Of a stretch of 64,000 nt of DNA, positions 797-30,585 are shown piece by piece. Within the stretch, counting starts at the first letter, position 1; each line of letters begins with the position of its first letter. This stretch comes from a virus. Lineage: Duplodnaviria > Caudoviricetes. The notes beneath the pieces are model-generated. The model was not told the DNA's origin and ran no database searches. It saw nothing but the letters and a program-made list of their open reading frames with translations. The stretch lies in IMG/VR virus record IMGVR_UViG_3300025030_000097, positions 294-64,293 of that record; one strand, written 5' to 3'. Both the position numbers and the translations under genes were made by a program.

Positions 797-1153
797 ATGA
801 AAAAGCACATAAAAGTTAGTGCTAAATATAACAGAGATGGTGAAACTTTTACGTTGACTATTAAGGAAATGTCTCATCCTTCTGTATTTGATTTTGGAGG
901 CGGTCAGCCAGAAGGTACCTCGGAGTACAGAGGTAGGATGTTTGTTCACGGTAACACTTTACTGGCTTTTAATGGAGCTACTTGTTACAGTGAGGATAAA
1001 TTTGCCTTAGAAACTTGGAGAGCACCTAAAGAAGTAACCAAAGTGTTTGTGCTAACTTCCGAAGAATACAGCAACACGATGAAACTTCCTGTTAAATATT
1101 GGCCGGATCTGAGAGAAGCTATTAAGGCTTATAATGAATTTTACTCTGAGTGA
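797..1153 (+). CDS. Expanded paralogue family member (KHIK...SH...AYNE)
   Basis: MKKHIKVSAKY..TIKEMSH...AIKAYNEFY. Confidence 0.8.
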   Translation: MKKHIKVSAKYNRDGETFTLTIKEMSHPSVFDFGGGQPEGTSEYRGRMFVHGNTLLAFNGATCYSEDKFALETWRAPKEVTKVFVLTSEEYSNTMKLPVKYWPDLREAIKAYNEFYSE

Positions 1154-1172
1154 TTTTGAATAGGAGATTAAC

Positions 1173-2324
1173 ATGAAACAGAATACTAAAGACGAGGTAA
1201 AAGTCGTTAAGGTTATAAATTCTCGCGTTACTTTAAGGCATTGGTACGTGGCTAGAGAGATGGTCAAGAATTGGGACAGACTGCATTGGGAGAAGTGGTG
1301 TAGCAGTCCTTTGTGGAAAATACTTAACAGAAAATACAAAAAACTTATCTATAAGGAGAACTAAAATGGTAGTAGTACTCAAACCAACAAGTAAGCGACT
1401 AAAACAGGTTATAAGGGAATTTGGTTCTGAGTGGCTGTTCATAGCAAGAAAATCAATGCAGTGTTTTGGTGGCAGGGAAGGCATTCAGATAAAATCAATG
1501 TGCGGTAAGCATACACGCAACGTCGAACTTTCAGATATTGACCAAAAGGAGGACTAAAATGGACAGATTCGATGATGCTAAAGTTGGCGATAAGGTTTAC
1601 GACAGGGTGTATGGGTTTGGAGTGGTGCATCAATCTGTCGGAGACACCACTATAAAAATAGTCTTTGGTGATAGTGCTTTCTACGAAACATTTGTAGTAG
1701 ACGGTCGGCGTTATCGCACAGCAGCAGAGCCAACACTCTTCTATGTCGATAATGACAACAAATACTCCGAAAAGAGGCCCATTCCGAAAGTACCTTGGGA
1801 TAAAGTTCCGGTTAATACTAAGATTTTGGTTGGCACTGCTAAGAGATACCTCGCCAGTGATAAAAAATATTTTGGAGGAGGCACTACTTCTTGGTCAAGT
1901 TCAGAAGTCTGCTACCCGCTGCCAGATCATGCCGTATTAGCAGAAGAAATAACAATCGACGGCGTAGTTTACCCTATAGGTAGCAAATAAGGAGACTAAA
2001 ATGAATAGAGAGAAATCCACTGTACCTGTCGTCCTCAAAGAGGGGTACTCCATAGCTCATAAAGCTGAAGGTGTTATGGCGGACAAAAAAGTTGAGGTCC
2101 TTCTAAATTCTAAGCAGAACGAGATTGGGGAGGTGTATAATGACGATGATGGTAGGGGGTGGGGCTATTTTCATTACCTATTAGATAACGGAGGGGATTG
2201 GATTGATAGTAGGGAACTGGCATTCAAAATGCTTACTGACGACCACGATGAATATGTCCACAACCTCAAGTACAAGATCAAGAAAATAAAGACGCTGAAA
2301 AAAGAGTTAGAAGACTACAAGTAA
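1173..2324 (+). CDS. Four hypothetical proteins (1173-1364, 1366-1557, 1559-1990, 2001-2324)
   Basis: Tightly packed ORFs, each with an SD; 1559 has an SH3-like KVGDKVYD..YGFGVV start. Confidence 0.6.
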
Positions 2325-2362
2325 TGCTAGAGGTGCTGATAAACAAACTAAAGGAGACTAAA

Positions 2363-3727
2363 ATGTCCACAAAAGCACTTGAAATATGCCTAGAAGTTCA
2401 CAAACAAAATGGAACTGCCTACATAACCGGAGGGGCTGTTAGAGATTTGCTTTTAGGACGGCCTTGTAAGGATGTAGACCTTGAAGTGTTCGGAATTTCT
2501 CAGGAAACTCTGGAGACTATTTTGAACTCTGTCTGTTCTAAAGTAGATCTTGTAGGTAAATCTTACGGAATTTACAAGGCAGATGGTATTGACGTTGGAT
2601 TCCCTCGTAGAGATATGACTCACGGAAAAGGGGCTGATGTAGAAATAGACCCTTACATGTCAGTCGAAGAAGCTGCTTTGCGAAGAGATCTGACGATAAA
2701 CGCAATGTACTTCAACCCGATAACTATGGAGATAATTGATCCTTTTGGTGGGCAGAAGGATTTACGTTATGAAATAGTTAGGATGGTTTCTCCTCACACA
2801 TTTAACGAAGACCCTTTACGTCCGGTACGGGCTGCTAGGTTCTGCGCTGTTTTGGGGTATTTTCCAGAATCAAGTACGGTAATGGCTTGTCGAAAAGCTG
2901 ATAGAGATAAAATCCACAACTTGCCCAAAGAACGCATTTTCTGGGAACTCGAAAAAGTACTGATGGAAGCTGACGCTACTTCAATATTCTTTGAAGAACT
3001 TGATGAAATGGAGTTGACTGAAATTCTGTTTCCTGAGTTGCATTTGTCCAAGCAAATAGAACAAGGCAAGTGCTACCACCCGGAAGGCTCAGTTTACGCA
3101 CATTCACTCTTAGCCCTTAACATTCTGCCTATCAAAGAAAGATCCTTAGAAATTATGCTAGCAACTCTATTTCACGACCTCGGTAAAGCATCTGTAGAAA
3201 CCGAGGTAAACGGCGATAAAATTAGTTTTAAAGGTCACGCTGAAGACCTTACCCTAGCTACCTCAGCAATGGCTAGGCTGACTGATGAGAAAGAGTTGAC
3301 CGAAAGCGTGCTCAACCTAATCAAACACCACATGCACCCTTACCAGTTCAAGAACGGAGTAACTAAGAGGCAAATCAGGAGGTTAGCCTCTAAAGTTGAT
3401 GTTAGAAAGCTTATGAAAGTTCACAAAGCAGACCGCGAAGGCAGAGGATATTCAGAGGAGAATCATAGTCATGCCCAAAGAAACGCTGAAGTTGCTGATA
3501 AAATTATGGCCGTATTTGAAGAGATTGAGGGAGAAATCGCGCCTATTATGCAAGGCAGACACCTCATCGAAGCAGGGTGGATTCCAGGAAAGCATTTCGG
3601 CTACATTCTTGCGCAGCTTTACGAGTACCAGTTAGACGGCGAATTGGTTGATGTTGCTAGTGGTTTGAAATTGGCTCATACGTTGTTTGGCGGAGTGAAA
3701 AAATCTACAGTTGTTAAAGGAGCCTGA
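2363..3727 (+). CDS. cca: CCA-adding tRNA nucleotidyltransferase with HD domain
   Basis: GGAVRD, DVD, RRDLTINA and EDPLR class II NTase motifs; H...HDLGK...HH...D HD domain; AAGGAG SD before ATG 2363. Confidence 0.9.
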   Translation: MSTKALEICLEVHKQNGTAYITGGAVRDLLLGRPCKDVDLEVFGISQETLETILNSVCSKVDLVGKSYGIYKADGIDVGFPRRDMTHGKGADVEIDPYMSVEEAALRRDLTINAMYFNPITMEIIDPFGGQKDLRYEIVRMVSPHTFNEDPLRPVRAARFCAVLGYFPESSTVMACRKADRDKIHNLPKERIFWELEKVLMEADATSIFFEELDEMELTEILFPELHLSKQIEQGKCYHPEGSVYAHSLLALNILPIKERSLEIMLATLFHDLGKASVETEVNGDKISFKGHAEDLTLATSAMARLTDEKELTESVLNLIKHHMHPYQFKNGVTKRQIRRLASKVDVRKLMKVHKADREGRGYSEENHSHAQRNAEVADKIMAVFEEIEGEIAPIMQGRHLIEAGWIPGKHFGYILAQLYEYQLDGELVDVASGLKLAHTLFGGVKKSTVVKGA

Positions 3728-3890
3728 AAATGAAAACAATCAAAAGACTATTTAAGCTAATTGTGAGTTTACCCGTTGTTATTGTGTGTACTATAGTATC
3801 TGGGTTGCTTATGGTGCTGGGTTTCGATAAAACTGTAGACCGTTTTATTAAATACTGCGAATCAAAATCCAAAGGAGCCTGAAAATGAAA
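3716..3890 (+). repeat. 20-bp perfect direct repeat AAAGGAGCCTGAAAATGAAA (3716-3735, 3871-3890)
   Basis: Read directly from the sequence. Confidence 0.9.
3730..3882 (+). CDS. 50-aa putative membrane peptide (not in ORF track)
   Basis: MKTIKRLFKLIVSLPVVIVCTIVSGLLMVLGF...; SD; flanked by 20-bp direct repeats. Confidence 0.65.
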   Translation: MKTIKRLFKLIVSLPVVIVCTIVSGLLMVLGFDKTVDRFIKYCESKSKGA

Positions 3891-4805: not shown

Positions 4806-4825
4806 ACTATAAAGGAGCCTAAAAA

Positions 4826-5260: not shown

Positions 5261-5433
5261 GACTATCATTCGATCTTGGAATACTAAAGTTCAGTCTCAG
5301 TAATTCAGGACTCCGTGTAGGAACAAAGTTAGGAGATACTTACGTCTCTAAAAGAGTTGTGAGAGCCGGTACTGTGAGTAAAAAGAAAGAGAAATTGGTA
5401 ATTACCGAAAAAGCTACTAAGCGTGTGAAATAG
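5257..5433 (+). CDS. Small basic protein, DUF4236-like
   Basis: ATG 5257 with GGAG SD; FSLSNSGLRVG..G..YVS pattern. Confidence 0.45.
   Translation: MRLSFDLGILKFSLSNSGLRVGTKLGDTYVSKRVVRAGTVSKKKEKLVITEKATKRVK
5397..5406. repeat. GGTAATTACC palindrome, copy 2
   Basis: Near the 3' end of ORF 5257. Confidence 0.85.
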
Positions 5434-6780: not shown

Positions 6781-7830
6781 ATGTCTTTCGGAATATTTCT
6801 GAGGCAGAAGCTGGTGGAGGTTGTTAAGTCAGCCTCCACTGTAGTTTCAGAGTCGAAGGTTAATAAAGTAGTGAAGGAGGTTAAAGGAGAGTGGGTGCCT
6901 AAAGTCGGTGACTTAGTTGTGGCCAAAGGCGGGTATAAAATTAATACTTCAGAGGTTGATTGGGAAGGTATAGTGACAGACATTTCTAAGTCTAGCTCTG
7001 TGTACTTTTATGCACAAGGCATCGGCAGCAGTAGTAGAGGTGTTATGGTGAGTCCTAGCGGTGAAACCTGCTACATGCTACACACTTGCAACTTTGAACT
7101 TAAGAAGCCTGCACACGCTAAAGAGCAACCACCGCCTTGGGTAGAACCTACAAAGAAACAAGTAGAGCCTGAACCAAAAACTGACTACCACGTTTGCAAG
7201 CATGGAAGGACTTTTGGAGTCGATTTTGACGCCAGAGCGGATGTTTGTTACAGAAAATGCCACTACAAAAATCATGAAGCCTGTAAAGATGCCTACTGGA
7301 AACTTAAGAAGGAGGAAGAAAAAGAGCCTGAAAAGAAACATAAATGCTGTGCTGGAGGAACTTTTGGGGCTGATTTTGAAAACTATGGCATTTGTTACGA
7401 GAGGTGCAGCCCAGCTACTTATGCTGCTTGTGAGGAGGAGTTTGCAGGTTCGTGCGGAGGCAAAAATCTTAAAAAAGGAACTAAAAGCAAAGAAAACAAA
7501 CCCAAACAACAAAAAGGCAATAAGTTTATTAAATTGTCTGAGCCTGTTTACAACAGCAGCATAGGAGTAGTAACTTTCTTCGTCGAAGAACAGAGTCACA
7601 CCTGCGAGGATTTTGGGAATAGCTATGGCGGTAGGCGTTTTGTTGCTTCTGACGGTTATGAGCTGCGGAGTGCTAGACAGCCTGGAGTTTATGATAAGGA
7701 CCACTATGTATATTTGAGGGGAGGGAATAATACTTGGGATCTTTCTAAAATAACCGTTTCTGAAAGTGAGTACAAACGTATAGTAAATGCTGTTACGGAG
7801 TATAATGAATATTATTTAGTGAATAAGTAG
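6781..7830 (+). CDS. Multidomain protein: SH3-like + 2x C..G.TFG.DF..C..C..C repeats + C-terminal paralogue-family domain
   Basis: CKHGRTFGVDF / CCAGGTFGADF repeats; KFIKL...VEEQSH..DFG...AVTEYNEYY. Confidence 0.75.
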   Translation: MSFGIFLRQKLVEVVKSASTVVSESKVNKVVKEVKGEWVPKVGDLVVAKGGYKINTSEVDWEGIVTDISKSSSVYFYAQGIGSSSRGVMVSPSGETCYMLHTCNFELKKPAHAKEQPPPWVEPTKKQVEPEPKTDYHVCKHGRTFGVDFDARADVCYRKCHYKNHEACKDAYWKLKKEEEKEPEKKHKCCAGGTFGADFENYGICYERCSPATYAACEEEFAGSCGGKNLKKGTKSKENKPKQQKGNKFIKLSEPVYNSSIGVVTFFVEEQSHTCEDFGNSYGGRRFVASDGYELRSARQPGVYDKDHYVYLRGGNNTWDLSKITVSESEYKRIVNAVTEYNEYYLVNK

Positions 7831-7876: not shown

Positions 7877-9178
7877 ATGAAACACATCAAATTCACTGCT
7901 ACACCCGTTGGGCCTAAATTTGATCAGGTAGAGGTTCAGATTGTGGAGCAGAGTCATATTCGAAATGAGTTTGGTATAAGTGGCTCTGATAGGTTTAAGG
8001 CTAACAATGGAATGGAACTTCGTAGTATAGCCTGTCCTAAAATCTATAGCGATTATATTTGCGTCAGGGGCGATTGCACCTACCGTGATAACGACAAACT
8101 CATCTTCACAACCTCTGAATACAACAAATTCAGGGAAGCTGTAGAGGAATACAACTCTTATTTTAAACAGAAACCCAAAAGCAAAAAGCCACAACGTCTT
8201 AGGGTTCATGCGGAAGCAATTGGTCCGGATTTCAAAAACGTGTCTGTGGAGGTGGTTGAACAGAGTCATTTTGAGGGTCAGTTTGGTGAATGTCGGACTA
8301 ATGGCGTGGGAGAGTTTATCTACGGAAAGGTTAGGTTGTGTTCTACACTAGGTGGAAGCGGGGTAAATATGGATAGCTTTATCCCTAGTAGATACAAAGA
8401 CAAAGACCTCATCGGAACATTCTACGTAGCTAACAAAAAAACCAAAGAGGACAAGGATAGTCTTAAAACTGTGGTTACTGTAGAAGTTTGGCAGGAGATT
8501 TTGAAGACTGTTGAGGCTTTTAATAAGGAGTTCTGGACTGGAGAAGTAGAGGAAGAGGTTGCTGAGAAAGAGGTAAAGAAGCCTGATGTACCTAAGAAGC
8601 GGTGGTTTATTAGGACTGTTGATTTCGTACATAGTAATTACGCCACTAAAAAAGGAACTGTCGCAGAATTTATTTCATTAGGACACGGATGGGTGAACGT
8701 CAGACTGTCTAACGGAAAGTCAGAATCTTGGACCGAGAAGAACTGCAAAGAGATTTCTGAGGCTGAACTTGCTGAGCGGTTTGTTGAGGAGAAGCCTGAA
8801 GTTCAGAAAGATAGGTATTTTGTTCGTACGAAGAGTGTCACCTCACTTCAGAATTTCGCAGTGGGACTTGTAGGCAAGGTCGTAAAAGAATCCAACAGCG
8901 GAAGATCTGTTACGGTAGTTCTTCCTAACGGACAGACGAGTAATTGGCTTAAAACAAACTGCGTAGAAATCACTGAGATCCCTGTGGTAGAGAAGAAGAG
9001 GTGGTTTGTTAGGACTACACCTAATCACTATGCTTCTGCTAGTACTATCGCCTCCGTAGGGACTGTTGGGGAATTTGTCCTAAATGGTGGTAGCGGGGTA
9101 CACGTAAAGGTACCTAGCGGTAAAACTGAATTTTGGGATGCCGAGAACTGCGTGGAGATTCAGGATCTTCCGCTTTGA
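7877..9178 (+). CDS. Two tandem paralogue-family domains + three ~60-aa repeats (KR[WY]F[IV]RT...G.V...V...G....W...NC.EI)
   Basis: Two EQSH..FG...YN/FN units and three internal repeats in the translation. Confidence 0.8.
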   Translation: MKHIKFTATPVGPKFDQVEVQIVEQSHIRNEFGISGSDRFKANNGMELRSIACPKIYSDYICVRGDCTYRDNDKLIFTTSEYNKFREAVEEYNSYFKQKPKSKKPQRLRVHAEAIGPDFKNVSVEVVEQSHFEGQFGECRTNGVGEFIYGKVRLCSTLGGSGVNMDSFIPSRYKDKDLIGTFYVANKKTKEDKDSLKTVVTVEVWQEILKTVEAFNKEFWTGEVEEEVAEKEVKKPDVPKKRWFIRTVDFVHSNYATKKGTVAEFISLGHGWVNVRLSNGKSESWTEKNCKEISEAELAERFVEEKPEVQKDRYFVRTKSVTSLQNFAVGLVGKVVKESNSGRSVTVVLPNGQTSNWLKTNCVEITEIPVVEKKRWFVRTTPNHYASASTIASVGTVGEFVLNGGSGVHVKVPSGKTEFWDAENCVEIQDLPL

Positions 9179-10508: not shown

Positions 10509-10514
10509 CAGAAA

Positions 10515-10526
10515 TGGTAATTACCA
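10515..10526. repeat. Palindrome copy 5 (TGGTAATTACCA)
   Basis: Upstream of the gltX SD. Confidence 0.9.
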
Positions 10527-10549
10527 AAATAACTAAAAGGAGACAAGAG

Positions 10550-11965: not shown

Positions 11966-12325
11966 ATGAAGAAGCATATTAAGATCAGAGCGGAGCTGGT
12001 TGATAACAAAACTAGAGTCAAAATAACCATCCTGGAACAGTCTCACTTCCTAGACCACTTCGCAGGACGCAAAACAAGTTTTATAAATGAGACTCACGCA
12101 TTCTGTCACGGCAACCTCAGAATGGCTTCTCATGCCGGAAATCTTCCTAAATTCAGAATAGGCGGCCTAAACAGCGGAGTATTTAAGAAAAATGGCGTAG
12201 TAGACAAACTCTATGTAGCCCATTTTCCTTCTCAGTTACCAGCCACTTTCACAGTTACTTTAAAAGATTACCCAGCAATAAAAAAGTGTATCGAAGCTTA
12301 TAACTCATACGAATTCACTAAATAA
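11966..12325 (+). CDS. Paralogue family member
   Basis: MKKHIKIRAEL..VKITILEQSH...CIEAYNSY. Confidence 0.85.
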   Translation: MKKHIKIRAELVDNKTRVKITILEQSHFLDHFAGRKTSFINETHAFCHGNLRMASHAGNLPKFRIGGLNSGVFKKNGVVDKLYVAHFPSQLPATFTVTLKDYPAIKKCIEAYNSYEFTK

Positions 12326-13716: not shown

Positions 13717-14091
13717 ATGGGTATGAAAAGGCATCTGAAGGTTAGAGCTGAATTAGTAAGACCTGGCAATGAAGAGGTTAAGGTTACTATACTAGAGAAA
13801 GTTGCGGAGCCTAGTAAATTTAGTAAACGAGGAATGTCTCACCCAAGTCACCATTCAGGGGTGTTTAGGTATGAAGAAGTGCTTTTGATATCTACTAATT
13901 ACTTAAGTAGGTCTAGTTACTCTGGCTTTAAGTATAACACCGGTTGTCAAGCTAACATGCACTACTTTGAGATAGGCCCAACTTCAACCCTAACCCTCCC
14001 AATAGAAGTGCGGCCAAAGATTAAAAAGGCTATCGAAGCGTATAATGAATGGGGTGCTGAAAATCATATAGAGGAGGTTAATACGGAATGA
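13717..14091 (+). CDS. Paralogue family member
   Basis: KRHLKVRAEL...VKVTILEK...AIEAYNEWGA. Confidence 0.85.
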   Translation: MGMKRHLKVRAELVRPGNEEVKVTILEKVAEPSKFSKRGMSHPSHHSGVFRYEEVLLISTNYLSRSSYSGFKYNTGCQANMHYFEIGPTSTLTLPIEVRPKIKKAIEAYNEWGAENHIEEVNTE

Positions 14092-14378
14092 AACATTTAA
14101 AACTAAGAGCCAGACTCATTCCAAACTCCAAAGAAGCAATTGTTACTGTAGTTGAGCAGACACATGGAGGCGGTGCTTTTAGTGACCCGTATTTTGACTT
14201 CTTCGTCCACAAAGGATATAGAGTAAGTTCTAACCGCAGCTACGTAGTATGTATGGGAGCTAATACCCTGTGGCTCAGTGACGGACCTGGAGTAGAATTT
14301 AAAATACAGCAACTACAATGGCCTAAAATAAAACAGTTAGTAGAAGCGTACAACGAGTGGGGAGCAACTCAACCTTAA
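14088..14378 (+). CDS. Paralogue family member
   Basis: MKHLKLRARL...VVEQTH...LVEAYNEWGA; ATGA overlap with the previous gene. Confidence 0.85.
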   Translation: MKHLKLRARLIPNSKEAIVTVVEQTHGGGAFSDPYFDFFVHKGYRVSSNRSYVVCMGANTLWLSDGPGVEFKIQQLQWPKIKQLVEAYNEWGATQP

Positions 14379-15425: not shown

Positions 15426-15770
15426 ATGCCGGATAATAAAGAAAGGAGGTGGTATGGTGAAAGGAAATGGATAAAGTATCGTGCTAGACTGACTGAGGAT
15501 AGGAAGTCTGTGGCTGTTAATATTTTGGAACAGAGTCATAGGCATATGGAGTTTGGAAATACTTGCTTAGGGCACGAATTTACACATGAAGGGTACAGGT
15601 TAGGTAGTTATTCTTTCCCAGAGCAGATAAGAAATGACGCTACTTACTTGCAAGGAAATTTGAAAGATAGAGACGACACAACCCTCTACATGACCTTAGA
15701 AACGTACCAGAAGTTCAAAGCTACAGTTCTAGCTTATAACAAGTATTTTAAAGGCGACTCAGAAGATTAA
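15426..15770 (+). CDS. Paralogue family member
   Basis: KWIKYRARL...ILEQSH..EFG...TVLAYNKYF. Confidence 0.85.
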   Translation: MPDNKERRWYGERKWIKYRARLTEDRKSVAVNILEQSHRHMEFGNTCLGHEFTHEGYRLGSYSFPEQIRNDATYLQGNLKDRDDTTLYMTLETYQKFKATVLAYNKYFKGDSED

Positions 15771-15835: not shown

Positions 15836-16228
15836 ATGAAACACATTAAACTCGAAGTAGCAGCTAACCCGGAATTCAGCCAGACACTCATTCGCGTAGT
15901 TAGTCAGACCAACGTAGGCAAAAAGTTCGGTAACATGAAAGGCGACCTGCGTAAGTTCAAAGCATCCAACGGCCTTACAATCGCCAGCAACCTGTTCCCT
16001 GCAAAAGATGAGGACTTCAGGAACACTCAGACGATTTGGCTTCGGGGTCTTGGTTCGGAAGTTCAGAATGCTACTTGCCTTGCTCTCCCCAATGACGTAG
16101 CAGTTAAGCTTTGCGAGGCTGTCGAGGAGTATAATGAGTACTATACCCAGGCTAATATCAACGCCAGAGTTCGTGCCAAGCGTGAAGCCGAAGCCCTACG
16201 CAGTGGTCGTGTTGAGTACGTTGGGTAA
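15836..16228 (+). CDS. Paralogue family member with helical tail
   Basis: MKHIKL...SQTN..KFG...AVEEYNEYY. Confidence 0.85.
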   Translation: MKHIKLEVAANPEFSQTLIRVVSQTNVGKKFGNMKGDLRKFKASNGLTIASNLFPAKDEDFRNTQTIWLRGLGSEVQNATCLALPNDVAVKLCEAVEEYNEYYTQANINARVRAKREAEALRSGRVEYVG

Positions 16229-16340: not shown

Positions 16341-16802
16341 ATGAAACACATCAACGCTAAAGTAATGATTCTGCCGGAATTTAACAAAGGTCTGCTTAAA
16401 ATCACCGGCCAGACCCACATCAGCACTGCCTTCGGTAACTCTGATGACGGCAAAACCTTCACAGCTACTAACGGCATTACTCTCGGAAGTAACCGTCGTG
16501 TCGCTAGGGATGCTGACGAGGTAAACACCATCTGGCTGCGTGGTACTGATACTTCTAAAAATGACAACTCGCTTGCCATTCCGGTGAAACGTCTCGGTAA
16601 AGTTGTCGATGCTATTAAGGAGTATAATGAGTACTATTCGCAGAGTCGTATTAACGAAAGGGTACGTCTTAAGCGTGCAGCAGAAGCCGAAGCAGCGCGT
16701 CAAGCACTTATCGAAGCAGTTCGTCAGGCTGAACTCGCAAGGCAAGCTGAACTGGCTCGTCGTGCTGTTACCTTCTCTTCCTGCACGTTCATCGTAGGTT
16801 AA
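16341..16802 (+). CDS. Paralogue family member with helical tail (duplicate of 15836)
   Basis: MKHIN...GQTH..AFG...TIWLRG...AIKEYNEYY; GGAGG SD. Confidence 0.85.
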   Translation: MKHINAKVMILPEFNKGLLKITGQTHISTAFGNSDDGKTFTATNGITLGSNRRVARDADEVNTIWLRGTDTSKNDNSLAIPVKRLGKVVDAIKEYNEYYSQSRINERVRLKRAAEAEAARQALIEAVRQAELARQAELARRAVTFSSCTFIVG

Positions 16803-16809: not shown

Positions 16810-17145
16810 GTGCCTCCGCGAGAGCATAGGCACATAAAGTACAGAGCTGAATTGTTGAGTTGTAGGAGTCGGGTTAAAGTCACGGTCCTTGAACAAACCC
16901 ACAGGGACCGTGACTTTGCTTTACCGGAGGATGGTATAGACAGATACTCAGATGGTGTGAGTTTTGTACACGAGAATTTTATACTTGGAAGCTGGTCTTA
17001 TCCAGAGTTTTTAAGTGGTAGTGACTGGGTGGCTGTGAGAGGTGGTTACAAAGGAGAAGACCACAAACCCATAACATTCCCAACTCTACAATCTTACAAC
17101 GATTTTAAAGCTGCTGTGCTTGCCTACAATGAGAGGTATAAGTAA
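16810..17145 (+). CDS. Paralogue family member
   Basis: RHIKYRAEL...VLEQTH..DF...AVLAYNERY. Confidence 0.8.
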   Translation: MPPREHRHIKYRAELLSCRSRVKVTVLEQTHRDRDFALPEDGIDRYSDGVSFVHENFILGSWSYPEFLSGSDWVAVRGGYKGEDHKPITFPTLQSYNDFKAAVLAYNERYK

Positions 17146-19457: not shown

Positions 19458-19497
19458 ACTGTAAGTAAACTTGGAAGAACCTAAAGGGGGACATATA

Positions 19498-21788: not shown

Positions 21789-22607
21789 ATGGATGAGAAT
21801 AGCAAGCAGGGAGGTGAGGTGATTGAGAGTGTGGATCTAGGTAATACCAATTTAGAGCCTAAGCACAGGGAGAATTCATCTAAAGAATTATTTCAAAGAG
21901 ACCCAGCAAGGTATTGGTACATTGAAGGAATGAGAGACGAGATAGAATTACTGTACGAAGAGGCAGCTACTAAATACACTGCGGCGTACACTCAGGCAAT
22001 TAGGGAAGGTAGGTCTTCTGCGTTACCTTATAAATGGGAAGCTATGCGGTGTATAGAATTTGCAGCAATTTACAAAGGTTTGATGGATGAGTGGGCCGCT
22101 ACTAAAAATATTGGCCGGATGATTGACGAGAATCAGCACATGGTTCACTGGTACGATGAGAAATCAGTAGTGCCAAAAGAATTACTTGACGTGTACAAGA
22201 AAAAGGTTCCTGCGGGATTTCTATATAACGTAGTAATATATAACAAAGAAAATAAACAATGCCGGTTTATTCAATCGCTAGATTATCATAAGGACTCTGA
22301 TCCGCTAATGGACAGGGAGTATGTTGCGTATCCTGGAGGTTTTGTTCAGGCAAATGTGTATATCAAAGACCCTGAAGTTATCTTTCACAAGTGGATGTTA
22401 ACCTCAAATAAACTTAACGACACCTACGACTTTAGGAATGCAGTTAAGAGAAGCATTAGACTGAGGTACTTGCAAATGCCTGAAGCACTTAGACAAGAAA
22501 TGCACAAGAGCAGCGTGTATAAAAAGTATGTGGCCCCTGCTATTGGGAATCGTAGTGTGGGTAGTTTGTTCGACGACTTTGTTGCATACAAGGCAGGGTT
22601 AGTATGA
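21789..22607 (+). CDS. Hypothetical protein
   Basis: 272-aa ORF with SD. Confidence 0.7.
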   Translation: MDENSKQGGEVIESVDLGNTNLEPKHRENSSKELFQRDPARYWYIEGMRDEIELLYEEAATKYTAAYTQAIREGRSSALPYKWEAMRCIEFAAIYKGLMDEWAATKNIGRMIDENQHMVHWYDEKSVVPKELLDVYKKKVPAGFLYNVVIYNKENKQCRFIQSLDYHKDSDPLMDREYVAYPGGFVQANVYIKDPEVIFHKWMLTSNKLNDTYDFRNAVKRSIRLRYLQMPEALRQEMHKSSVYKKYVAPAIGNRSVGSLFDDFVAYKAGLV

Positions 22608-22927
22608 AAAAGTACCTTAAAGTTCGCGGAGAGTTGATGTACCCAGACAACAAATTCGTTCGCATGACGGTGCTTAAAAATAGTCATGAAGGGCTGGAGT
22701 TTGGTGGGAATGATCCAGCACTCATGTCTCACGTGTTCAGCTTTAAAAGGGTAAAGTTAAGGGCTATTGCTACGGCAAGATTTAAATTTTCTACCACCGG
22801 AGATAAAAGACCAGTATCTGTAACTCTCGGCAATCCCATAAGCGGCTCTATCCTAATACCTATAGAGTACTGGAAAGAAGTTAAAGAAGCTGTCCTAGCC
22901 TACAACGAATGGGGGAAATTTCAATGA
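22604..22927 (+). CDS. Paralogue family member
   Basis: MKKYLKVRGEL...VLKNSH..EFG...AVLAYNEWG. Confidence 0.85.
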   Translation: MKKYLKVRGELMYPDNKFVRMTVLKNSHEGLEFGGNDPALMSHVFSFKRVKLRAIATARFKFSTTGDKRPVSVTLGNPISGSILIPIEYWKEVKEAVLAYNEWGKFQ

Positions 22928-23439
22928 AACATTTAAAACTGCGTGCTGAATTGGATAAGAAAGATAAGACTTTTTGTTTTGTGGAGGTAGTTGAGCAGAC
23001 ACATAGGAGATTAGACTTTGGAGTTAATTTTAATGGAGCCGGTTCTTTTGTTTGTGGTGAGATTATGTTGTTGTCTTGGCGAGAGCCTGTTTGGTGGGAT
23101 AACCAGTTAGGAGGAACGTACAGACTTTACTTGAGAGGTAGAGACGTGGACTATGACAAACGCAAAGTTAGAGTCCCTACAAACATGTGGCATAAAATAA
23201 AAGCCGCTGTTTTGGCTTACAATGAATTTTATTCTGGCGAGGACGGAGGGAAGAAAGAGGTTAGGGTACAAGAGAAGATTGGAGTGTCTGTTAAAACTAC
23301 CGACGAATGGAAGAGTATAGTACTAGCACAGTATGTGGAGGCGTTAGAGAAAGAAATTATATACGGTAGGCCAGAAATAGTAGGCACCTCCGTGAGCTTA
23401 TTCGGTACTGACTACTTGGTTACAACTAATGGCGACTAA
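22924..23439 (+). CDS. Paralogue family member with C-terminal extension
   Basis: MKHLKLRAEL...VVEQTH..DFG...LYLRG...AVLAYNEFY. Confidence 0.85.
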   Translation: MKHLKLRAELDKKDKTFCFVEVVEQTHRRLDFGVNFNGAGSFVCGEIMLLSWREPVWWDNQLGGTYRLYLRGRDVDYDKRKVRVPTNMWHKIKAAVLAYNEFYSGEDGGKKEVRVQEKIGVSVKTTDEWKSIVLAQYVEALEKEIIYGRPEIVGTSVSLFGTDYLVTTNGD

Positions 23440-25943: not shown

Positions 25944-25957
25944 AAAAGGAGAACTAA

Positions 25958-26758: not shown

Positions 26759-26760
26759 CT

Positions 26761-28377
26761 ATGAAAACTAATTTTAAAGTTCCTGCTACGTTGATCTGTG
26801 ATTTCTACAAAATTTCTCACAGAGCACAATACCCAGTTAAAACTGAAAAGGTCTATAGCACATGGATTCCTAGGACCAGCAGAATTACTTTCGTAGACAA
26901 AGTTGCTGCCTTTGGGTTCCAGGCATTCATCAAAAAGTATCTTATCGAATACTTTAACGACAACTTCTTCAGCCGCCCTTTGGAGGATGTGGTAGACGAG
27001 TATAGCAGGGTAGTTAAGTACTGCCTCGGAGATAATAATCCAGACACCTCTCACATTGAAGCACTTCACTCTTTAGGTTATCTTCCGATTCTTATTAAAG
27101 CAGTTCCTGAAGGCACTTTAGTTCCTGTTCGGGTGCCTATGCTGACCATTGAAAATACCCACGAAGACTTTGGGTGGCTTACCAACTACCTAGAGACTAT
27201 CGCTTCCTGTGAACTTTGGCAGAGTGCTACGAGTGCAACCCTAGCTCTTGAGTACAGGAAAATTTTGGATAAGTATGCCACGTTGACCTCTGACATTCCT
27301 GAGTTTGTTGACTTCCAAGGGCACGATTTCTCTATGCGAGGGATGAGTTCTTTGGAGTCTGCTATAACTTCTGGTATGGGGCATTTGCTGTCTTTTGCAG
27401 GAACCGACACAATCCCTGCTATTTTGGGACTTGAAAATTACTACAACGCTAATATTGAAAATGAACTTGTGGGTTGTTCAGTCCCGGCGACCGAACACAG
27501 CATAGCTTCATGTGGCGGTTCTAGTTCTTTAGAAGAGGAAGCTACTTTTAGGCGTTTGATTACAGAAGTCCACCCTTCGGGTATCGTCTCTTTGGTTTCT
27601 GATACATGGGACCTTTGGAATGTCCTTACAAATATCCTGCCGAATCTTAAAGAAGTTATTAATGCTAGAGACGGCAAAGTAGTTATCCGACCTGACTCTG
27701 GTGATCCTGTAGATATCATTTGTGGTGTGTCTTACTCTGAGGTTTTTGACTTGGATGACGATAGCCTGATGGGTTCTCCTGATCGCGTTGTTAAATGTCT
27801 GGAAGATGGAAAATTTTATAAGATAACTTCCTACGATACTGGTTGGACTACTAAATTTGAATGTAAAGAAATTTCTGAGGCTTCTGTGAAGGGGGTCGTA
27901 GAACTGCTTTATGAAACCTTCGGAGGGACTGTTAATAGCAAAGGGTTTATCCAATTAAGTGATAAAGTGGGGGCTATTTACGGAGACTCTATCACACTTG
28001 AGAGGGCAGAAAATATTTGTAATCGTCTCATGGATAAAGGATTTGCCTCTACCAACATTGTGCTAGGCATTGGGTCGTACACTTACCAGTATAACACTAG
28101 GGACACTTTCGGGTTCGCTATGAAAGCTACTCATTGTGTTATTAATGGAGTTGAGAAAAATATATTTAAAGATCCGATCACAGATGATGGAACTAAAAAA
28201 TCTCTTACTGGACGTTGTGTTGTACGAAACATTGACGGAGTGTTGGTAGCTACTGATGGTCTGTCTGAATTAGAAGAATACGCGGCGCTTGATAACGTGC
28301 TTCAGCCTATTTTCTGCAACGGAGTTTTGTTGGTAGAAACTTCACTTAAAGAAATCAGAGAGCGAATCAAACAATGA
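26761..28377 (+). CDS. nadV: Nicotinamide phosphoribosyltransferase-like (Namat-like)
   Basis: DFYK.SH..QYP, HDFSMRG, GTD, PATEHS, VSDTWD, IRPDSGDP, IYGDSIT, TRDTFGFAMK, KDP.TD..KKS. Confidence 0.92.
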   Translation: MKTNFKVPATLICDFYKISHRAQYPVKTEKVYSTWIPRTSRITFVDKVAAFGFQAFIKKYLIEYFNDNFFSRPLEDVVDEYSRVVKYCLGDNNPDTSHIEALHSLGYLPILIKAVPEGTLVPVRVPMLTIENTHEDFGWLTNYLETIASCELWQSATSATLALEYRKILDKYATLTSDIPEFVDFQGHDFSMRGMSSLESAITSGMGHLLSFAGTDTIPAILGLENYYNANIENELVGCSVPATEHSIASCGGSSSLEEEATFRRLITEVHPSGIVSLVSDTWDLWNVLTNILPNLKEVINARDGKVVIRPDSGDPVDIICGVSYSEVFDLDDDSLMGSPDRVVKCLEDGKFYKITSYDTGWTTKFECKEISEASVKGVVELLYETFGGTVNSKGFIQLSDKVGAIYGDSITLERAENICNRLMDKGFASTNIVLGIGSYTYQYNTRDTFGFAMKATHCVINGVEKNIFKDPITDDGTKKSLTGRCVVRNIDGVLVATDGLSELEEYAALDNVLQPIFCNGVLLVETSLKEIRERIKQ

Positions 28378-28389
28378 GGAGGTGGTACA

Positions 28390-28764
28390 ATGAAGCACCT
28401 TAAAATACGGGCAGAGTACAGACCTGCCACAAAAGACGTAGAAGTGACTTTACTAGAGCAGTCACATTTCGGTAATGATTTCGGTAGGATAGAAGATGCT
28501 TTTACGAGGAATCTCGGGGAACCTTGCGTATTTAAGCACGAAGGAGTAGCAATTTATAGCCATACCGCTTATAATACACACCAAACATATTTTTTCAAAA
28601 ATAAGTATCCAGACCCAATTAATAAAATAACCACTTGGCTTTGCATAGGAGCTAGTGCCTCAAAGTTTGAACGAACCAAAGTAGAAAACTCTGTGCCGAT
28701 TGGTGAATGGGCAGCCTTGAAAGCAGCTATTGAAGCCTACAACGAATGGGGAGCTAACCAATGA
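28390..28764 (+). CDS. Paralogue family member
   Basis: MKHLKIRAEY...LLEQSH..DFG...AIEAYNEWGANQ. Confidence 0.85.
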   Translation: MKHLKIRAEYRPATKDVEVTLLEQSHFGNDFGRIEDAFTRNLGEPCVFKHEGVAIYSHTAYNTHQTYFFKNKYPDPINKITTWLCIGASASKFERTKVENSVPIGEWAALKAAIEAYNEWGANQ

Positions 28765-29108
28765 AACATTTAAAAATTAGAGCGGAGCTTGTAGGTTTTA
28801 AAAGAGACCTGGTGAAAATAACCATTCTAGAACAGACCCACTTCTTTAAAGAATTTGGTAATGTTACAGACAAAATGGCAGGTTCTGCTTTTATTCACGG
28901 AGAAGGGCTTTTGCACAGTGATGGAGAAGAGCCAGCATACAGCGGTAAGAACATATCCGTCCATGACAGTAACTACTATTACTGGCTTTTTGTTAACGGT
29001 CAAACACACCACAAAGGCGATGTTGGTGAACCTATAACACTAGAGACTTGGGCAGTACTGAAAGAAACTGTGAAGGCTTACAACGAATGGGGAGCTAATC
29101 AACCTTAG
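28761..29108 (+). CDS. Paralogue family member
   Basis: MKHLKIRAEL...ILEQTH..EFG...TVKAYNEWGANQP. Confidence 0.85.
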   Translation: MKHLKIRAELVGFKRDLVKITILEQTHFFKEFGNVTDKMAGSAFIHGEGLLHSDGEEPAYSGKNISVHDSNYYYWLFVNGQTHHKGDVGEPITLETWAVLKETVKAYNEWGANQP

Positions 29109-29121
29109 AGGAGAAACTACT

Positions 29122-30225
29122 ATGTCGATTTTAGATAAATTTGCTTCACTTATCCCGCTTGAAGATGTAGAAGAGGGCGCTAAACAACAGATTTACAACA
29201 TCCTGAAACTTGATTGTTTAAAGAAACTTGCATTGATGCCAGATGCCCACCAAGGTTATGATATGCCCATTGGCGGGGTGGCTTTGCTGGATGGATTTAT
29301 CTCAGCTAGCTTTGTCGGACTTGATTTGGGCTGCGGCGTATGCCATATAGCTACTGAAGAAGGTGCAGAAGACTACTCAAAAGATGATTTACAACACATT
29401 TACAAGACTATCCACAAGACTATACCGACAGGATTTTCTTCACATTATCACTCTAAAGATTATCTTCCTAAGTTCAAGTCTGCGGTTCTTGATAAACAGA
29501 CCACCGACAGAATAGCCGAGAAGGTTGACTTTCAGTTAGGAACGTTAGGCGGTGGGAACCACTTCATAGAAATCGGAAGTAACAGAAAAGGCAACCTAGC
29601 AGTAACTATCCACTCTGGTTCTAGGAATGTGGGGCATACTATCGGCGGGGCTTATATGAAGATGGGCCGTATGTTTGAACTTTCTTCGGAACTAGGTCAA
29701 TCCTACCTGAGAGATATGAACTACGCTCTTGACTGGGCTTTGGAAAACAGAATGCAAATGATGCGGAAGGTTTTAGAAGCTGTTGGGATTAGTAATAAAA
29801 ATATAACGGTAGTTTTGAAGGACGTTATAAATGAGAACCACAACCACGCTGTAGTTACTTCTGAAGGTGTTTTGCATCGTAAGGGAGCTACTCCTGCTGA
29901 TTTGGGCCAACTTGGTATTATTCCAGCTAACATGAGAGACGGAGTTTATATTACTAGAGGTTTAGGTAATACCGAATTTTTGTCATCAGCTAGTCACGGT
30001 TGCGGAAGACTTATGGGAAGGAACGTAGCTAAGAAATCTCTAGACTACGATGAATTCGTAACTCAGATGGAAGGTATTGTATGTTCTACTGACAGAAGCA
30101 TTTTAGATGAGGCTCCAAATGCCTATAAAGATGTTAACTATGTGCTTGATGCTCAAGTCGGTAGAACTGTAGAAGTTGTTGATTTCATTAAGCCTTTGCT
30201 AAATATTAAAGCAGGAGGAGACTAA
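29122..30225 (+). CDS. rtcB: RtcB RNA ligase
   Basis: MPDAH, PIG, DLGCG, GTLGGGNHFIE, HSGSR, NHNH, HRKGAT, SHGCGR, DEAPNAYK. Confidence 0.93.
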   Translation: MSILDKFASLIPLEDVEEGAKQQIYNILKLDCLKKLALMPDAHQGYDMPIGGVALLDGFISASFVGLDLGCGVCHIATEEGAEDYSKDDLQHIYKTIHKTIPTGFSSHYHSKDYLPKFKSAVLDKQTTDRIAEKVDFQLGTLGGGNHFIEIGSNRKGNLAVTIHSGSRNVGHTIGGAYMKMGRMFELSSELGQSYLRDMNYALDWALENRMQMMRKVLEAVGISNKNITVVLKDVINENHNHAVVTSEGVLHRKGATPADLGQLGIIPANMRDGVYITRGLGNTEFLSSASHGCGRLMGRNVAKKSLDYDEFVTQMEGIVCSTDRSILDEAPNAYKDVNYVLDAQVGRTVEVVDFIKPLLNIKAGGD

Positions 30226-30228
30226 CCA

Positions 30229-30585
30229 ATGAGCAGACACTTAAAAATTAAAGCGGAATTAAATCCAGACAAAAAGACAGCAACTCTAACGTGGATTTCT
30301 CAAACTCATTTTGGAAGTTATTTTGGAAACAGTAGGCCGGTTGGTTGTATTAATGACGACTATTTTAGCTCTAGCTGTTCTTTTAACGTTGGTGTTAATA
30401 GTCTAGTAAGTCATCCTAATAATACATTTAGAAAAGGCCAACTTTCACATAATGAAATCAAAAATAGAAAATGGTTTTTAGTGCCTAGCCAGAATGTGCC
30501 GTGGAATAGAACCACAACTATCGCAGTAGAAGACTGGCCTTGGATTAAAAAACTGGTGGAATCTTACAATGAATTTTACAAATAA
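30229..30585 (+). CDS. Paralogue family member
   Basis: RHLKIKAEL...ISQTH..YFG...LVESYNEFY. Confidence 0.85.
   Translation: MSRHLKIKAELNPDKKTATLTWISQTHFGSYFGNSRPVGCINDDYFSSSCSFNVGVNSLVSHPNNTFRKGQLSHNEIKNRKWFLVPSQNVPWNRTTTIAVEDWPWIKKLVESYNEFYK

What the first reader, a model, noticed from the sequence alone, without database searches (positions are those of the whole stretch)
797..30585. Massively expanded unknown protein family: 16 domain copies in 15 ORFs with fixed ends and hypervariable cores
Seen: ORFs 797, 6781 (C-term), 7877 (two copies), 11966, 13717, 14088, 15426, 15836, 16341, 16810, 22604, 22924, 28390, 28761 and 30229 share K-H-[IL]-K-x-R-A-E-L...[VI]-x-[IV]-[LV]-E-Q-[ST]-H...F-G...F at the N-end and [IV]-x-x-x-x-W-x-x-[IL]-K-x-A-[VI]-x-A-Y-N-E-[WYF] at the C-end. 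The 40-70 aa between them differ strongly in length and sequence. Copies are dispersed around anti-defence-type genes (gltX, HD-GYP, NARP1-like pair, rtcB). Inference: a scaffold-plus-variable-surface repertoire, such as a diversified set of host or defence-system inhibitors or nucleic-acid binders. The beta-strands-then-helix ending in AV.AY loosely recalls PC4/PUR/SpoVG-type folds, which is unverified. This is the best candidate for an undescribed system in the window.
Basis: partly seen in the sequence, partly recalled or inferred. Interest (0 to 1): 0.88.

Follow-up and report, generated by a model that had tools for sequence, protein, structure and literature searches.

The report
Expanded unnamed phage small-protein family
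An uncultured, roughly 110-kb phage carries 16 old, diverged copies of one unnamed ~100-residue protein domain with constant ends and a fast-changing middle; they are probably a kit of binding proteins, but their function is untested.

Summary
All 16 domain copies in 15 ORFs are real homologues. An HMM built from 11 small copies finds the 4 held-out ORFs at E 4e-21 to 4e-9 and nothing else in the window.

- **Distribution.** The window is a viral contig judged 57% complete. A complete 113-kb relative (G002) has 29 copies. A profile search finds 846 clusters in metagenomes, some with 2-5 tandem domains.
- **No known family.** None of 117 members matches Pfam, PHROGs, NCBIfam, PADLOC or PDB sequences convincingly.
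- **No fold match.** A confident model (pLDDT 92.9) has six beta strands and a C-terminal helix. It matches no solved structure: best Z is 5.3, to PH-like domains over about half the domain.
- **Old paralogues.** Copies are at most 42-46% identical within a genome, show no gene conversion, and are under purifying selection.
- **Odd cores.** Against close relatives, cores change about four times faster than ends. They also carry more synonymous change (38%) than ends (20%) or neighbouring genes (24%). This points to exchanged or long-kept core alleles. It is not a DGR.

Function is unknown; a set of binders for varied targets is my best guess. The PC4/PUR/SpoVG idea is unsupported. The scan has noted analogous, unrelated families in other large phages, so this is a new member of a known kind.

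The parts
797..1153 (+). Family gene, single domain (118 aa)
   Evidence: Domain at 800-1150, E 4e-28. Shine-Dalgarno site upstream, and the palindrome GGTAATTACC at 765.
6781..7830 (+). 349-aa protein with a C-terminal family domain (7522-7824). The N-terminal part has Cys-rich repeats and no family match.
   Evidence: Held-out HMM hit at E 3.8e-9; 1.4e-28 with the full profile. No Pfam or PHROG hit for the N-terminal part.
7877..9178 (+). 433-aa protein with two tandem family domains (7877-8173 and 8195-8527), then three repeats of about 65 aa from no known family
   Evidence: Two held-out domains at E 2.6e-14 and 1.2e-15. No Pfam or PHROG hit for the C-terminal part. The repeats are seen in the sequence itself.
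11966..12325 (+). Family gene, single domain (119 aa); the most basic copy, net charge about +10
13717..14091 (+). Family gene (124 aa); upstream member of a translationally coupled pair
   Evidence: Its stop overlaps the next gene's ATG (ATGA).
14088..14378 (+). Family gene (96 aa); the smallest copy and the one modelled at high confidence
   Evidence: AlphaFold2 with 117 sequences: pLDDT 92.9, pTM 0.85.
15426..15770 (+). Family gene (114 aa), domain at 15462-15755
   Evidence: Against the L003 orthologue, the core is 35% identical and the ends 84-96%.
15836..16228 (+). Family gene (130 aa): domain plus a charged C-terminal tail
   Evidence: Its orthologue in L003 is 95% identical.
16341..16802 (+). 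Family gene: domain at 16341-16646 plus an Ala/Glu/Arg-rich tail. The longest ORF starts at TTG 16311.
   Evidence: Held-out HMM hit at E 2.5e-15. Shine-Dalgarno site before the ATG at 16341.
16810..17145 (+). Family gene (111 aa, GTG start)
   Evidence: It is the clearest mosaic against L003: ends nearly identical even at synonymous sites, core saturated and with an indel.
22604..22927 (+). Family gene (107 aa); upstream member of a coupled pair
22924..23439 (+). Family gene: domain at 22924-23241 plus a tail of about 60 aa. The longest ORF starts at 22909.
   Evidence: Held-out HMM hit at E 4e-21. ATGA overlap with the gene before it.
28390..28764 (+). Family gene (124 aa); upstream member of a coupled pair, with the longest core
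   Evidence: First AlphaFold2 model: pLDDT 80.1.
28761..29108 (+). Family gene (115 aa); downstream member of a coupled pair
30229..30585 (+). Family gene (118 aa), directly after rtcB

Best explanation
**What it is.** This is a lineage-specific multigene family of small cytoplasmic proteins, found in a clade of uncultured phages of about 105-135 kb.

**Shown**
- Each copy is one domain of about 100 residues.
- The N-terminal beta hairpin (K-H-[IL]-K..., ...E-Q-[ST]-H) and the C-terminal helix (...K-x-A-[VI]-x-A-Y-N-E) are conserved.
- The strands and loops between them differ in sequence and length.
- The paralogues are old, intact, individually retained and under purifying selection.
- Between close relatives, the middle parts diverge far more than the ends and than neighbouring genes, at synonymous sites too.

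**Inferred**
- The conserved ends are the folding frame and perhaps a shared docking patch.
- The middle is the working surface.
- The set is a repertoire of binding modules made during infection. Each is tuned to a different and variable target, most likely host proteins such as defence or takeover targets.
- Whole core alleles are exchanged between co-circulating phages by recombination within the conserved ends.
For: **Family reality and spread**
- 16 domains in the window, 4 ORFs of them recovered blind.
- 29 copies in the complete relative G002, 4 in fragment G001 and 11 in contig L003.
- 846 clusters at E <= 1e-3 and 251 at E <= 1e-10 in the 1.84-billion-protein library.

**Modular domain**
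- Of the 156 proteins in hand, 125 have one domain, 25 have two, and 6 have three to five.
- In the window the domain is also fused to unrelated tails.

**Real genes**
- Shine-Dalgarno sites are visible in front of most of the 15 starts printed.
- Omega for whole genes is 0.03-0.51.

**Frame and surface**
- The model of the smallest copy is confident (pLDDT 92.9). It has strands at 4-10, 16-24, 39-41, 44-48, 60-63 and 70-74, and a helix at 75-92.
- Conserved columns sit in strands 1, 2 and 4 and in the helix. Columns 33-38 and 49-60 carry little information and hold most gaps.

**Old, retained paralogues**
- The best within-genome identity is 25-42% in the window and 29-46% in G002.
- Ends of paralogues are 47-48% identical at DNA level on average, 70% at most, so there is no gene conversion.
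- 10 of 16 copies have reciprocal best hits in G002. Several are collinear, although core proteins of the two phages are only about 33-82% identical.

**Fast, mosaic cores (14 orthologue pairs)**
- dN is 0.285 in cores against 0.068 and 0.063 in the ends.
- At codons with unchanged amino acid, 170 of 445 differ in cores, 133 of 661 in ends and 902 of 3722 in 18 neighbouring genes.
- The core value exceeds the end value in 14 of 14 pairs. In the 6 pairs with cores at least 70% identical it is 34.7% against 22.5%, p = 0.002.
- Alignments show sharp boundaries, for example in genes 16810, 22924 and 15426.
- Copy number also changes: G001 has 4 tandem copies where the window has 2, then rtcB, then 1.

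**Charge.** Net charge runs from -3 to +10, so these are not uniform DNA mimics.
Against: - No target, partner or phenotype is known. Nothing here shows binding to anything.
- Ten polar or charged positions are conserved in 73-100% of 117 members: H3, K5, E23, Q24, T/S25, H26, S48, K82, Y88 and N89. That is more than a plain folding frame needs. It fits a shared ligand, a catalytic site or a common partner at least as well.
- Omega is below 1 in the core (0.25), so positive selection is not shown. Pairwise NG86 on saturated cores is a blunt tool.
- The excess synonymous change in cores could reflect a locally raised mutation rate, or chance matches in poorly aligned cores, rather than recombination. 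The well-aligned subset still shows it, but more weakly.
- Timing of expression is unknown, and no RNA data were found.
- The host is unknown.
Confidence: 0.4

Rival explanations
1. A nucleic-acid-binding family. The conserved basic and aromatic residues on the beta sheet and helix bind RNA or DNA, and the variable part sets which RNA, tRNA or site is bound. The proteins would act as regulators or protectors of RNA during infection.
For: - 9 of 16 copies are basic, with net charge +2.8 to +10.4.
- K2, H3, K5, R7, K82, F31, F39, W78 and Y88 are conserved.
- Neighbours include a CCA-adding enzyme, GluRS and RtcB.
- In G002 a cluster of 7 tRNA genes lies just before the family region.
- Weak structural echoes of sheet-plus-helix nucleic-acid binders: SRP9/14 at Z 3.1-3.4, PUR at 3.0, PC4 at 2.6, and the C-terminal regions of RecJ-like and NrnA-type enzymes at 3.0-4.3.
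Against: - 7 of 16 copies are neutral or acidic, with pI 5.7-7.7.
- All structural scores lie below the level the tool itself calls chance.
- No known nucleic-acid-binding family matches by sequence.
Confidence: 0.2
2. An enzyme family. The conserved polar cluster (H3, K5, E23-Q24-T/S25-H26, S48, K82, Y88-N89) is an active site for one chemistry, for instance on a nucleotide or RNA end, and the variable core selects the substrate.
For: These polar residues are conserved in 73-100% of 117 members, far above the rest of the protein.
Against: - Only F31 and N89 are invariant.
- In the window, by my reading of the sequences, 10 of 16 copies keep the full E-Q-[ST]-H and 12 of 16 keep H3.
- No catalytic family or fold matches.
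- Sixteen to 29 copies of a 100-residue enzyme in one phage would be without precedent that I know of.
Confidence: 0.12
3. Proteins packed into the capsid and injected with the DNA, like the T-even internal proteins. The conserved N-terminal motif would act as a capsid-targeting signal.
For: - The N-terminal motif M-K-H-[IL]-K is conserved.
- T-even internal proteins are polymorphic and counter host restriction. This is recalled; the lead came from an earlier scan note.
Against: - The motif is predicted to be an integral first strand of the fold (pLDDT 97 for residues 1-10).
- It recurs inside proteins with 2-5 tandem domains, so it is not a removable leader.
- The genes sit among replication and metabolism genes, not the structural module.
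Confidence: 0.04
4. Diversification by a diversity-generating retroelement or other targeted hypermutation of the cores.
For: Cores carry more synonymous and non-synonymous change than the ends and than neighbouring genes.
Against: - No reverse transcriptase (PF00078) in 0 of 3 records, including the complete G002. The control rang in 3 of 14 genomes.
- No template-like repeat was found. The only direct repeats of 30 nt or more in 1-32000 are the family's own end motifs at 60-85% identity, the junction palindrome, and one 32-nt pair.
- Cores differ by indels, which such retroelements do not make.
Confidence: 0.02

Closest known systems
Expanded small-protein multigene families of large phages. 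Examples are the unnamed arrays noted by this scan in jumbo and other large phages. From recall: the SPO1 host-takeover module and the variable gene blocks of T4-type phages.
   Same: - Ten or more diverged paralogues in one phage genome.
- All on one strand in the accessory arm.
- Conserved ends and a variable middle.
- No known domain or fold, and untested function.
   Different: - This family is unrelated in sequence to any of them.
- It is dispersed among enzymes as singles, pairs and short runs rather than as one long array.
- It is mainly beta, not helical.
- It forms proteins with 2-5 tandem domains.
- It sits in a phage of about 110 kb rather than a jumbo phage.
PeSL-mediated modular shuffling in hyperplastic regions of T4-type phages (PMC2839356, PMC4122927; I saw only the search listing and the start of each abstract)
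   Same: - Accessory genes differ between close relatives through recombination at short conserved sequences.
- Here too, a conserved palindrome (GGTAATTACC) sits at gene junctions, 4 of its 12 copies directly before family genes.
   Different: - There the conserved recombination sites are intergenic promoter-stem-loop motifs, and whole genes are swapped.
- Here the sharp boundaries lie inside the genes, at the conserved coding ends, and only the core differs.
- Recombination at these sites is inferred here, not shown.
PH-like (pleckstrin homology) superfold
   Same: - An antiparallel beta sheet closed by a C-terminal helix.
- PH, FERM-F3 and histone-chaperone PH-like domains make up much of the top of the structure-match list: Z 5.3 (rmsd 2.8, 52 aligned), 4.8 (2.4, 54) and 4.7 (2.1, 50).
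- The PH fold is a classic binding scaffold with variable loops (recalled).
   Different: - Only about half of the 96-residue model aligns.
- The scores are below what the tool gives as typical chance level (best Z 7-8).
- Foldseek finds nothing at E <= 0.001.
- There is no sequence relation.
gp38 adhesins of T4-type phages (PMC3157838; I saw only the search listing and the start of the abstract)
   Same: The listing and abstract start call gp38 a complex modular determinant of host specificity and among the most variable sequences of these phages. That it has conserved segments framing variable ones is recalled, not seen.
   Different: gp38 is a single-copy virion protein that faces the cell surface. 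These are many-copy, non-structural-region proteins without signal peptides, and their targets are unknown.

Membership tests
Any curated protein family (Pfam-A, PHROGs v4, NCBIfam 20, PADLOC 2.0) | A significant profile match for family members | tested here: not met
   - Pfam: 0 of 117 members at E <= 0.01.
- PHROGs: 0 of 117 at E <= 0.001.
- NCBIfam: 0 of 117 at E <= 0.01.
- PADLOC: 1 of 117 at E 0.006, a CARF model.
- Ten window copies scanned alone gave nothing better than E 0.0035.
- Of ten long homologues, one has a sub-threshold Cap15_CD_rec hit: 16.8 bits against a cut-off of 31.2.
PH-like superfold | A seven-stranded two-sheet sandwich capped by a C-terminal helix, shown by a structural match over most of the domain | tested here: inconclusive
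   - The model shows six strands plus a C-terminal helix.
- Best matches are PH-like: Z 5.3, 4.8 and 4.7, but with only 50-54 of 96 residues aligned.
- Foldseek's best hit is E 0.8.
   - PC4 (1pcf): Z 2.6, rmsd 4.1, 47 aligned.
- PUR-alpha repeat III: Z 3.0.
- Human PURA: Z 2.1.
- All and all at noise level.
- SpoVG is not among the rows shown.
T7 gp1.2 dGTPase inhibitor (phrog_2949) | Sequence or profile similarity to gp1.2 | tested here: not met
   - One of ten window copies hit phrog_2949 at E 0.0035.
- 0 of 117 members hit at E <= 0.001.
- hhalign of the 117-member profile against T7 gp1.2 gives probability 0.2%, with 3 columns aligned.
Diversity-generating retroelement target genes | A reverse transcriptase in the genome | tested here: not met
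   PF00078 was found in 0 of 3 records (G000, G001 and the complete G002). The control rang in 3 of 14 genomes. G000 is only 57% complete.
Diversity-generating retroelement target genes | A template repeat matching the variable region, differing at adenines and without indels | tested here: not met
   No such repeat was found in 1-32000. The orthologue cores differ by indels and at all bases.
T-even-type internal proteins | The conserved motif is a short leader found only at the protein's N terminus | tested here: not met
   The motif starts every internal domain of proteins with 2-5 domains. It is modelled as strand 1 of the fold. Cleavage and packaging cannot be tested here.
Phage multigene family of small accessory proteins (a descriptive kind, not a curated family) | Many diverged, intact paralogues on one strand of the accessory region, retained in relatives | tested here: met
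   - 16 copies within 30 kb of the window.
- 29 copies in G002, spread over about 35 kb.
- All on the + strand and intact. The exception is 2 G002 matches with one in-frame stop each.
- 14 orthologue pairs identified in close relatives.

The most novel reading that the evidence does not exclude
The conserved ends are more than a frame: they form a shared docking patch (H3, K5, Q24, H26, K82, Y88, N89) that plugs every copy into one common phage or host hub. Candidates for the hub are a protease, a nuclease or the translation machinery. The exchangeable cores would recruit different targets. The family would then be a bacterial-virus counterpart of the adaptor multigene families of large eukaryotic viruses, built on a previously unseen fold, with core cassettes traded between phages in an arms race.
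Probability: 0.1. Interest if true: 0.85.

Novelty: new member of a known kind. Interest (0 to 1): 0.55.

Why it matters
Large phages spend a sizeable share of their genomes on families like this one. Here that is about 5 kb of the first 30 kb. In the complete relative it is 29 copies, which at about 0.35 kb each would be roughly 9% of the genome (my estimate, not a computed figure). Almost none of these families has a known function.

This family is a good test case for four reasons:
- The domain is small and models with high confidence.
- It has no solved relative, so a structure would probably add a new fold or a far-flung PH-like variant.
- Its conserved polar patch offers clear residues to mutate.
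- The pattern of exchanged or long-lived core alleles is what one expects of genes facing variable partners such as host defences.

If the copies turn out to be inhibitors or adaptors, they would be a ready-made library of natural binders on one scaffold.

Tried and rejected
**Leads that went nowhere**
- *Cultured phages.* tblastn of ORF 28761 against 50,697 phage records gave no match. The DNA polymerase is only about 27% identical to those of T5-like phages, so there is no cultured relative.
I did not follow it up.
- *ESM Atlas.* No usable feature hit. Its own model of ORF 14088 is poor, at pLDDT 0.44.
- *IMG/VR contigs.* Three scans found only G001 and G002, or three records of 142-146 kb with a 47-residue match. 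Two of those three were searched with the profile and have no family match. The scan with P0157 found nothing.
- *Cellular genomes.* A scan of 185,579 species' genomes with the A3 motif found 26 pattern hits, none a relative. This tests one sub-motif only.
- *Fused forms.* The word-index search for longer fused forms found one protein, with no Pfam domain.
- *Source names.* Cluster look-up of 10 homologues gave no meaningful source names; one entry holds only a stray backslash. Their contigs reach 134 kb.
- *Complex prediction.* ORF 13717 with ORF 14088, a translationally coupled pair, gave no verdict: score 0.02 against a mark of 0.32, and controls were not run. This is evidence neither for nor against binding.
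- *Expression.* No RNA holder is listed. Four DNA runs from one study, labelled groundwater metagenome, hold the stretch. I laid no reads.
- *Gene conversion between paralogues.* Rejected, since the ends are only 47-48% identical at DNA level.
- *A tRNA-free phage using protein substitutes.* Rejected, since G002 has 7 tRNA genes.
- *Other paralogue families.* None on the + strand of the window at E <= 1e-4.
- *Literature.* Three full-text searches found no paper on this family. That is weak evidence, because an unnamed family cannot be searched by name.
- *Supplements.* Supplementary files of papers were not consulted.

Full report
**1. The observation**

The window is positions 294-64293 of a 64,293-base viral contig, judged 57% complete.

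I built an HMM from the 11 small copies only and ran it against every six-frame ORF piece of 40 aa or more in the window, 568 in all.
- It found the four ORFs left out of the model: 22909/22924 at E 4e-21; 16311/16341 at 2.5e-15; the C-terminus of 6781 at 3.8e-9; and 7877 with two domains at 2.6e-14 and 1.2e-15.
- Nothing else matched at E <= 10.

A profile of all 16 domains (alignment A1) finds exactly 16 places in the record, the last ending at window position 30,582.

Shine-Dalgarno sites are visible in front of most of the 15 starts printed. Three pairs overlap as ATGA (13717/14088, 22604/22924, 28390/28761), and all three downstream genes open with the same 15 bases.

The variable middle is 40-69 residues long.

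**2. Surroundings**

Pfam identifies these neighbours:
- a CCA-adding/poly(A) polymerase-HD protein (2324-3727)
- a radical SAM protein (3885-4805)
- GluRS (10514-11920)
- an HD-domain protein (21213-21767), for which HD-GYP is not verified
- an ATP-dependent DNA ligase (24550-25908)
- a Prs-like plus NAMPT-like pair (25958-28377)
- RtcB (29122-30225)
- a helicase (31222-32538)
- further on, DNA polymerase A, an SbcC-like protein and NrdD

The polymerase is only about 27% identical to those of T5-like phages, so there is no cultured relative. The window has no tRNA genes. Four DNA runs from one study, labelled groundwater metagenome, hold the stretch.

**3. Relatives and copy number**

In IMG/VR, the three scans that returned true relatives reached only two related records.
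- G002 is complete (113,142 bases, 127-base terminal overlap) and has 29 matches. All are on the + strand, between 110.7 kb and 32.7 kb across the contig ends, with up to seven in a row. Two of them carry one in-frame stop each.
- G001, a 59-kb fragment, has four copies in tandem where the window has two, then rtcB, then one.
- A metagenome contig, L003, is collinear with window positions 5.5-24 kb and has 11 domain copies.
- G002 also has seven tRNA genes, three of them tRNA-Glu, just before the family region.

An exhaustive profile search of 1.84 billion representative proteins finds 846 clusters at E <= 1e-3, 251 at <= 1e-10 and 14 at <= 1e-30.
- Of the 156 proteins I hold, 125 have one domain, 25 have two, 3 have three, 2 have four and 1 has five.
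- None of ten looked up carries a meaningful source name; their contigs reach 134 kb.
- With 16-29 copies per genome, all under 50% identical to one another, 846 clusters could come from only a few dozen phage lineages. That estimate is my inference.
- A motif scan of one genome per prokaryote species found no relative.

**4. Not a known family**

| Library | Result |
|---|---|
| Pfam | 0 of 117 members at E <= 0.01 |
| PHROGs | 0 of 117 at E <= 0.001 |
| NCBIfam | 0 of 117 at E <= 0.01 |
| PADLOC | 1 of 117 at E 0.006 |
| PDB sequences | best E 0.43 |

A lone PHROG hit of one copy to T7 gp1.2 (E 0.0035) does not survive a profile comparison: probability 0.2%. The ESM Atlas gives nothing usable.

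**5. Fold**

- With the 16 paralogues alone, ORF 28390 models at pLDDT 80.1.
- With 117 sequences, the smallest copy, ORF 14088, models at pLDDT 92.9 and pTM 0.85. It has strands at 4-10, 16-24, 39-41, 44-48, 60-63 and 70-74, and a helix at 75-92.
- Foldseek against the PDB finds nothing at E <= 0.001; its best hit is 0.8, to Psb28.
- The exhaustive aligner over 48,161 chains gives a best Z of 5.3, to a FERM F3 lobe (rmsd 2.8, 52 aligned). Next come Akt PH at 4.7, Brag2 PH at 4.4 and RecJ at 4.3.
- The second look at Foldseek's own list gives Rtt106 PH at 4.8, SRP9/14 at 3.1-3.2, PUR at 3.0 and 2.1, and PC4 at 2.6.
- The tool states that Z under 8 may be only a common arrangement.

So there is no significant match. 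PH-like domains are the commonest type among the top rows, each covering about half of the model.

**6. Conservation pattern**

In 117 members, F31 and N89 are invariant. The other conserved positions are:

| Position | Members (of 117) |
|---|---|
| Y88 | 116 |
| T/S25 | 114 |
| F39 | 108 |
| K5 | 106 |
| Q24 | 105 |
| H26 | 104 |
| H3 | 102 |
| S48 | 101 |
| K82 | 98 |
| G32 | 91 |
| E23 | 85 |

Columns 33-38 and 49-60 carry almost no information and hold most gaps.

The ends are therefore more than hydrophobic packing. They hold a set of conserved polar residues that may form a shared site. I could not map them in three dimensions because the tools return no coordinates.

Net charge ranges from -2.9 to +10.4.

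**7. Evolution**

*Paralogues are old.*
- The best within-genome identity is 25-42% in the window and 29-46% in G002.
- Their ends are 47-48% identical at DNA level, 70% at most, so the ends are not kept alike by gene conversion.
- Ten of 16 window copies have reciprocal best hits in G002. Several are collinear: 15426, 15836, 16341, 16810 and 22604 map to G002 positions 13.6, 14.4, 15.0, 15.5 and 21.5 kb. Shared proteins of the two phages are only 32-82% identical.

*Comparison with the close relatives (L003 and G001).*
- About two-thirds of the neighbouring genes are 84-98% identical, most with omega 0.02-0.15.
- The 14 family orthologue pairs are 57-95% identical, with omega 0.03-0.51.

*Split by region, concatenated.*

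| Region | dN | dS | omega |
|---|---|---|---|
| N-end | 0.068 | 0.48 | 0.14 |
| Core | 0.285 | 1.12 | 0.25 |
| C-end | 0.063 | 0.38 | 0.165 |

*Synonymous change, counted directly.* NG86 can inflate dS when dN is high, so I counted differences only at codons whose amino acid is unchanged.

| Region | All such codons | Fourfold sites |
|---|---|---|
| Ends | 133 of 661 (20.1%) | 67 of 251 |
| Cores | 170 of 445 (38.2%) | 86 of 200 |
| 18 neighbouring genes | 902 of 3722 (24.2%) | 391 of 1522 |

- The core value exceeds the end value in 14 of 14 pairs.
- In the six pairs whose cores are at least 70% identical, so that alignment is safe, it is 34.7% against 22.5% (p = 0.002).
- The alignments show sharp boundaries. 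In 16810, for instance, the first 37 and last 28 residues are almost free of any change, while the core is saturated and has an indel.

*What this means.* The ends look like the rest of the genome, and the cores look older. The simplest reading is that divergent core alleles persist in the phage population and are moved between genomes by recombination within the conserved ends. A locally raised mutation rate is the alternative.

A diversity-generating retroelement is excluded as far as the data go. No reverse transcriptase was found in any of the three records, including the complete one. There is no template-like repeat, and the cores differ by indels.

**8. What it most likely does**

*Shown:* it is a real, old, selected, modular domain family with a conserved frame and fast, mosaic cores, sitting in the accessory arm of the genome.

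*Inferred:* it is a repertoire of binding modules aimed at different and variable targets, probably host proteins. I give this 0.4.

*Rivals:*
- nucleic-acid binders, 0.2
- an enzyme family built on the conserved polar cluster, 0.12
- injected internal proteins, 0.04
- retroelement targets, 0.02

The boldest reading the data allow is an adaptor family that docks through the conserved patch onto one hub and recruits varied targets through the cores. I give it 0.1.

A complex prediction for one coupled pair returned no verdict, and no RNA data were found. Neither counts for or against anything.

**9. Novelty**

The family and its predicted fold are unnamed and unmatched. The kind of thing is already familiar, though: a many-copy small-protein family with constant ends and a variable middle in a large phage.
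- This scan's notes list at least eight such families in other phage genomes, all unrelated to this one and all of untested function.
- Variable-gene shuffling at conserved sequences is described for T4-type phages (PMC2839356 and PMC4122927; I saw only the listing and the start of each abstract).
- The index also holds look-alike stretches of this family in 4 windows of 2 genomes. The only note shown concerns this same genome.

I therefore class it as a new member of a known kind, with moderate interest. Its value lies in being a clean, small, well-modelled test case, and in the synonymous-site evidence for exchanged or long-lived cores.

**10. Limits**

- No atomic coordinates were available to map the conserved residues.
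- The host is unknown.
- Supplementary files of papers were not consulted.

Noticed in passing
window 765, 5397, 6275, 7838, 10516, 11908, 15400, 17799, 25932, 32839, 50279, 60683: The perfect palindrome GGTAATTACC occurs 12 times, mostly at gene junctions with similar flanks (TAAAT[TA]GGTAATTACCTAAA). Four copies lie directly before family genes (797, 7877, 11966, 15426). It may be a terminator, a promoter or a recombination signal, in the manner of T4-type PeSL motifs. It is already the subject of another first-reader note.
   Followed up: partly
window 10514-11920 compared with L003 3538-4947: The phage GluRS is only 64% identical between the window and contig L003 (dS 1.41), while flanking genes are 93-97% identical. 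The whole gene appears to have been replaced by a divergent allele. In G002, three tRNA-Glu(UUC) genes accompany its GluRS.
   Followed up: partly
window 8543-9178 (C-terminal part of ORF 7877) and 6781-7521 (N-terminal part of ORF 6781): Two family proteins carry extra modules with no Pfam or PHROG match. One has three repeats of about 65 residues, each starting K-[KD]-R-[WY]-F-[IV]-R-T. The other has two Cys-rich repeats. They may hint at what the family domain is coupled to.
   Followed up: partly
window 28390-30585 compared with G001 (L007 4151-5557): G001 has four family genes in an unbroken row. The window has two, then rtcB, then one, and lacks the counterpart of the second G001 copy. 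This records gene gain or loss, plus insertion or loss of rtcB, within the cluster.
   Followed up: partly
window 19471-20796: This 441-aa protein has no Pfam hit but matches PHROG 'peptidase' families (phrog_4191 at 1e-19, phrog_34186 at 3e-23). It sits in the middle of the family region and is 92% identical in L003.
   Followed up: no
window 14319-14372, 22871-22924, 28708-28761, 29049-29102: The subgroup ending in A-Y-N-E-W-G shares 63-80% DNA identity over the last 54 bases. In the coupled pairs, the GGGG(A) of the W-G codons lies 8-10 bases before the next ATG, so it may double as that gene's ribosome-binding site.
   Followed up: partly
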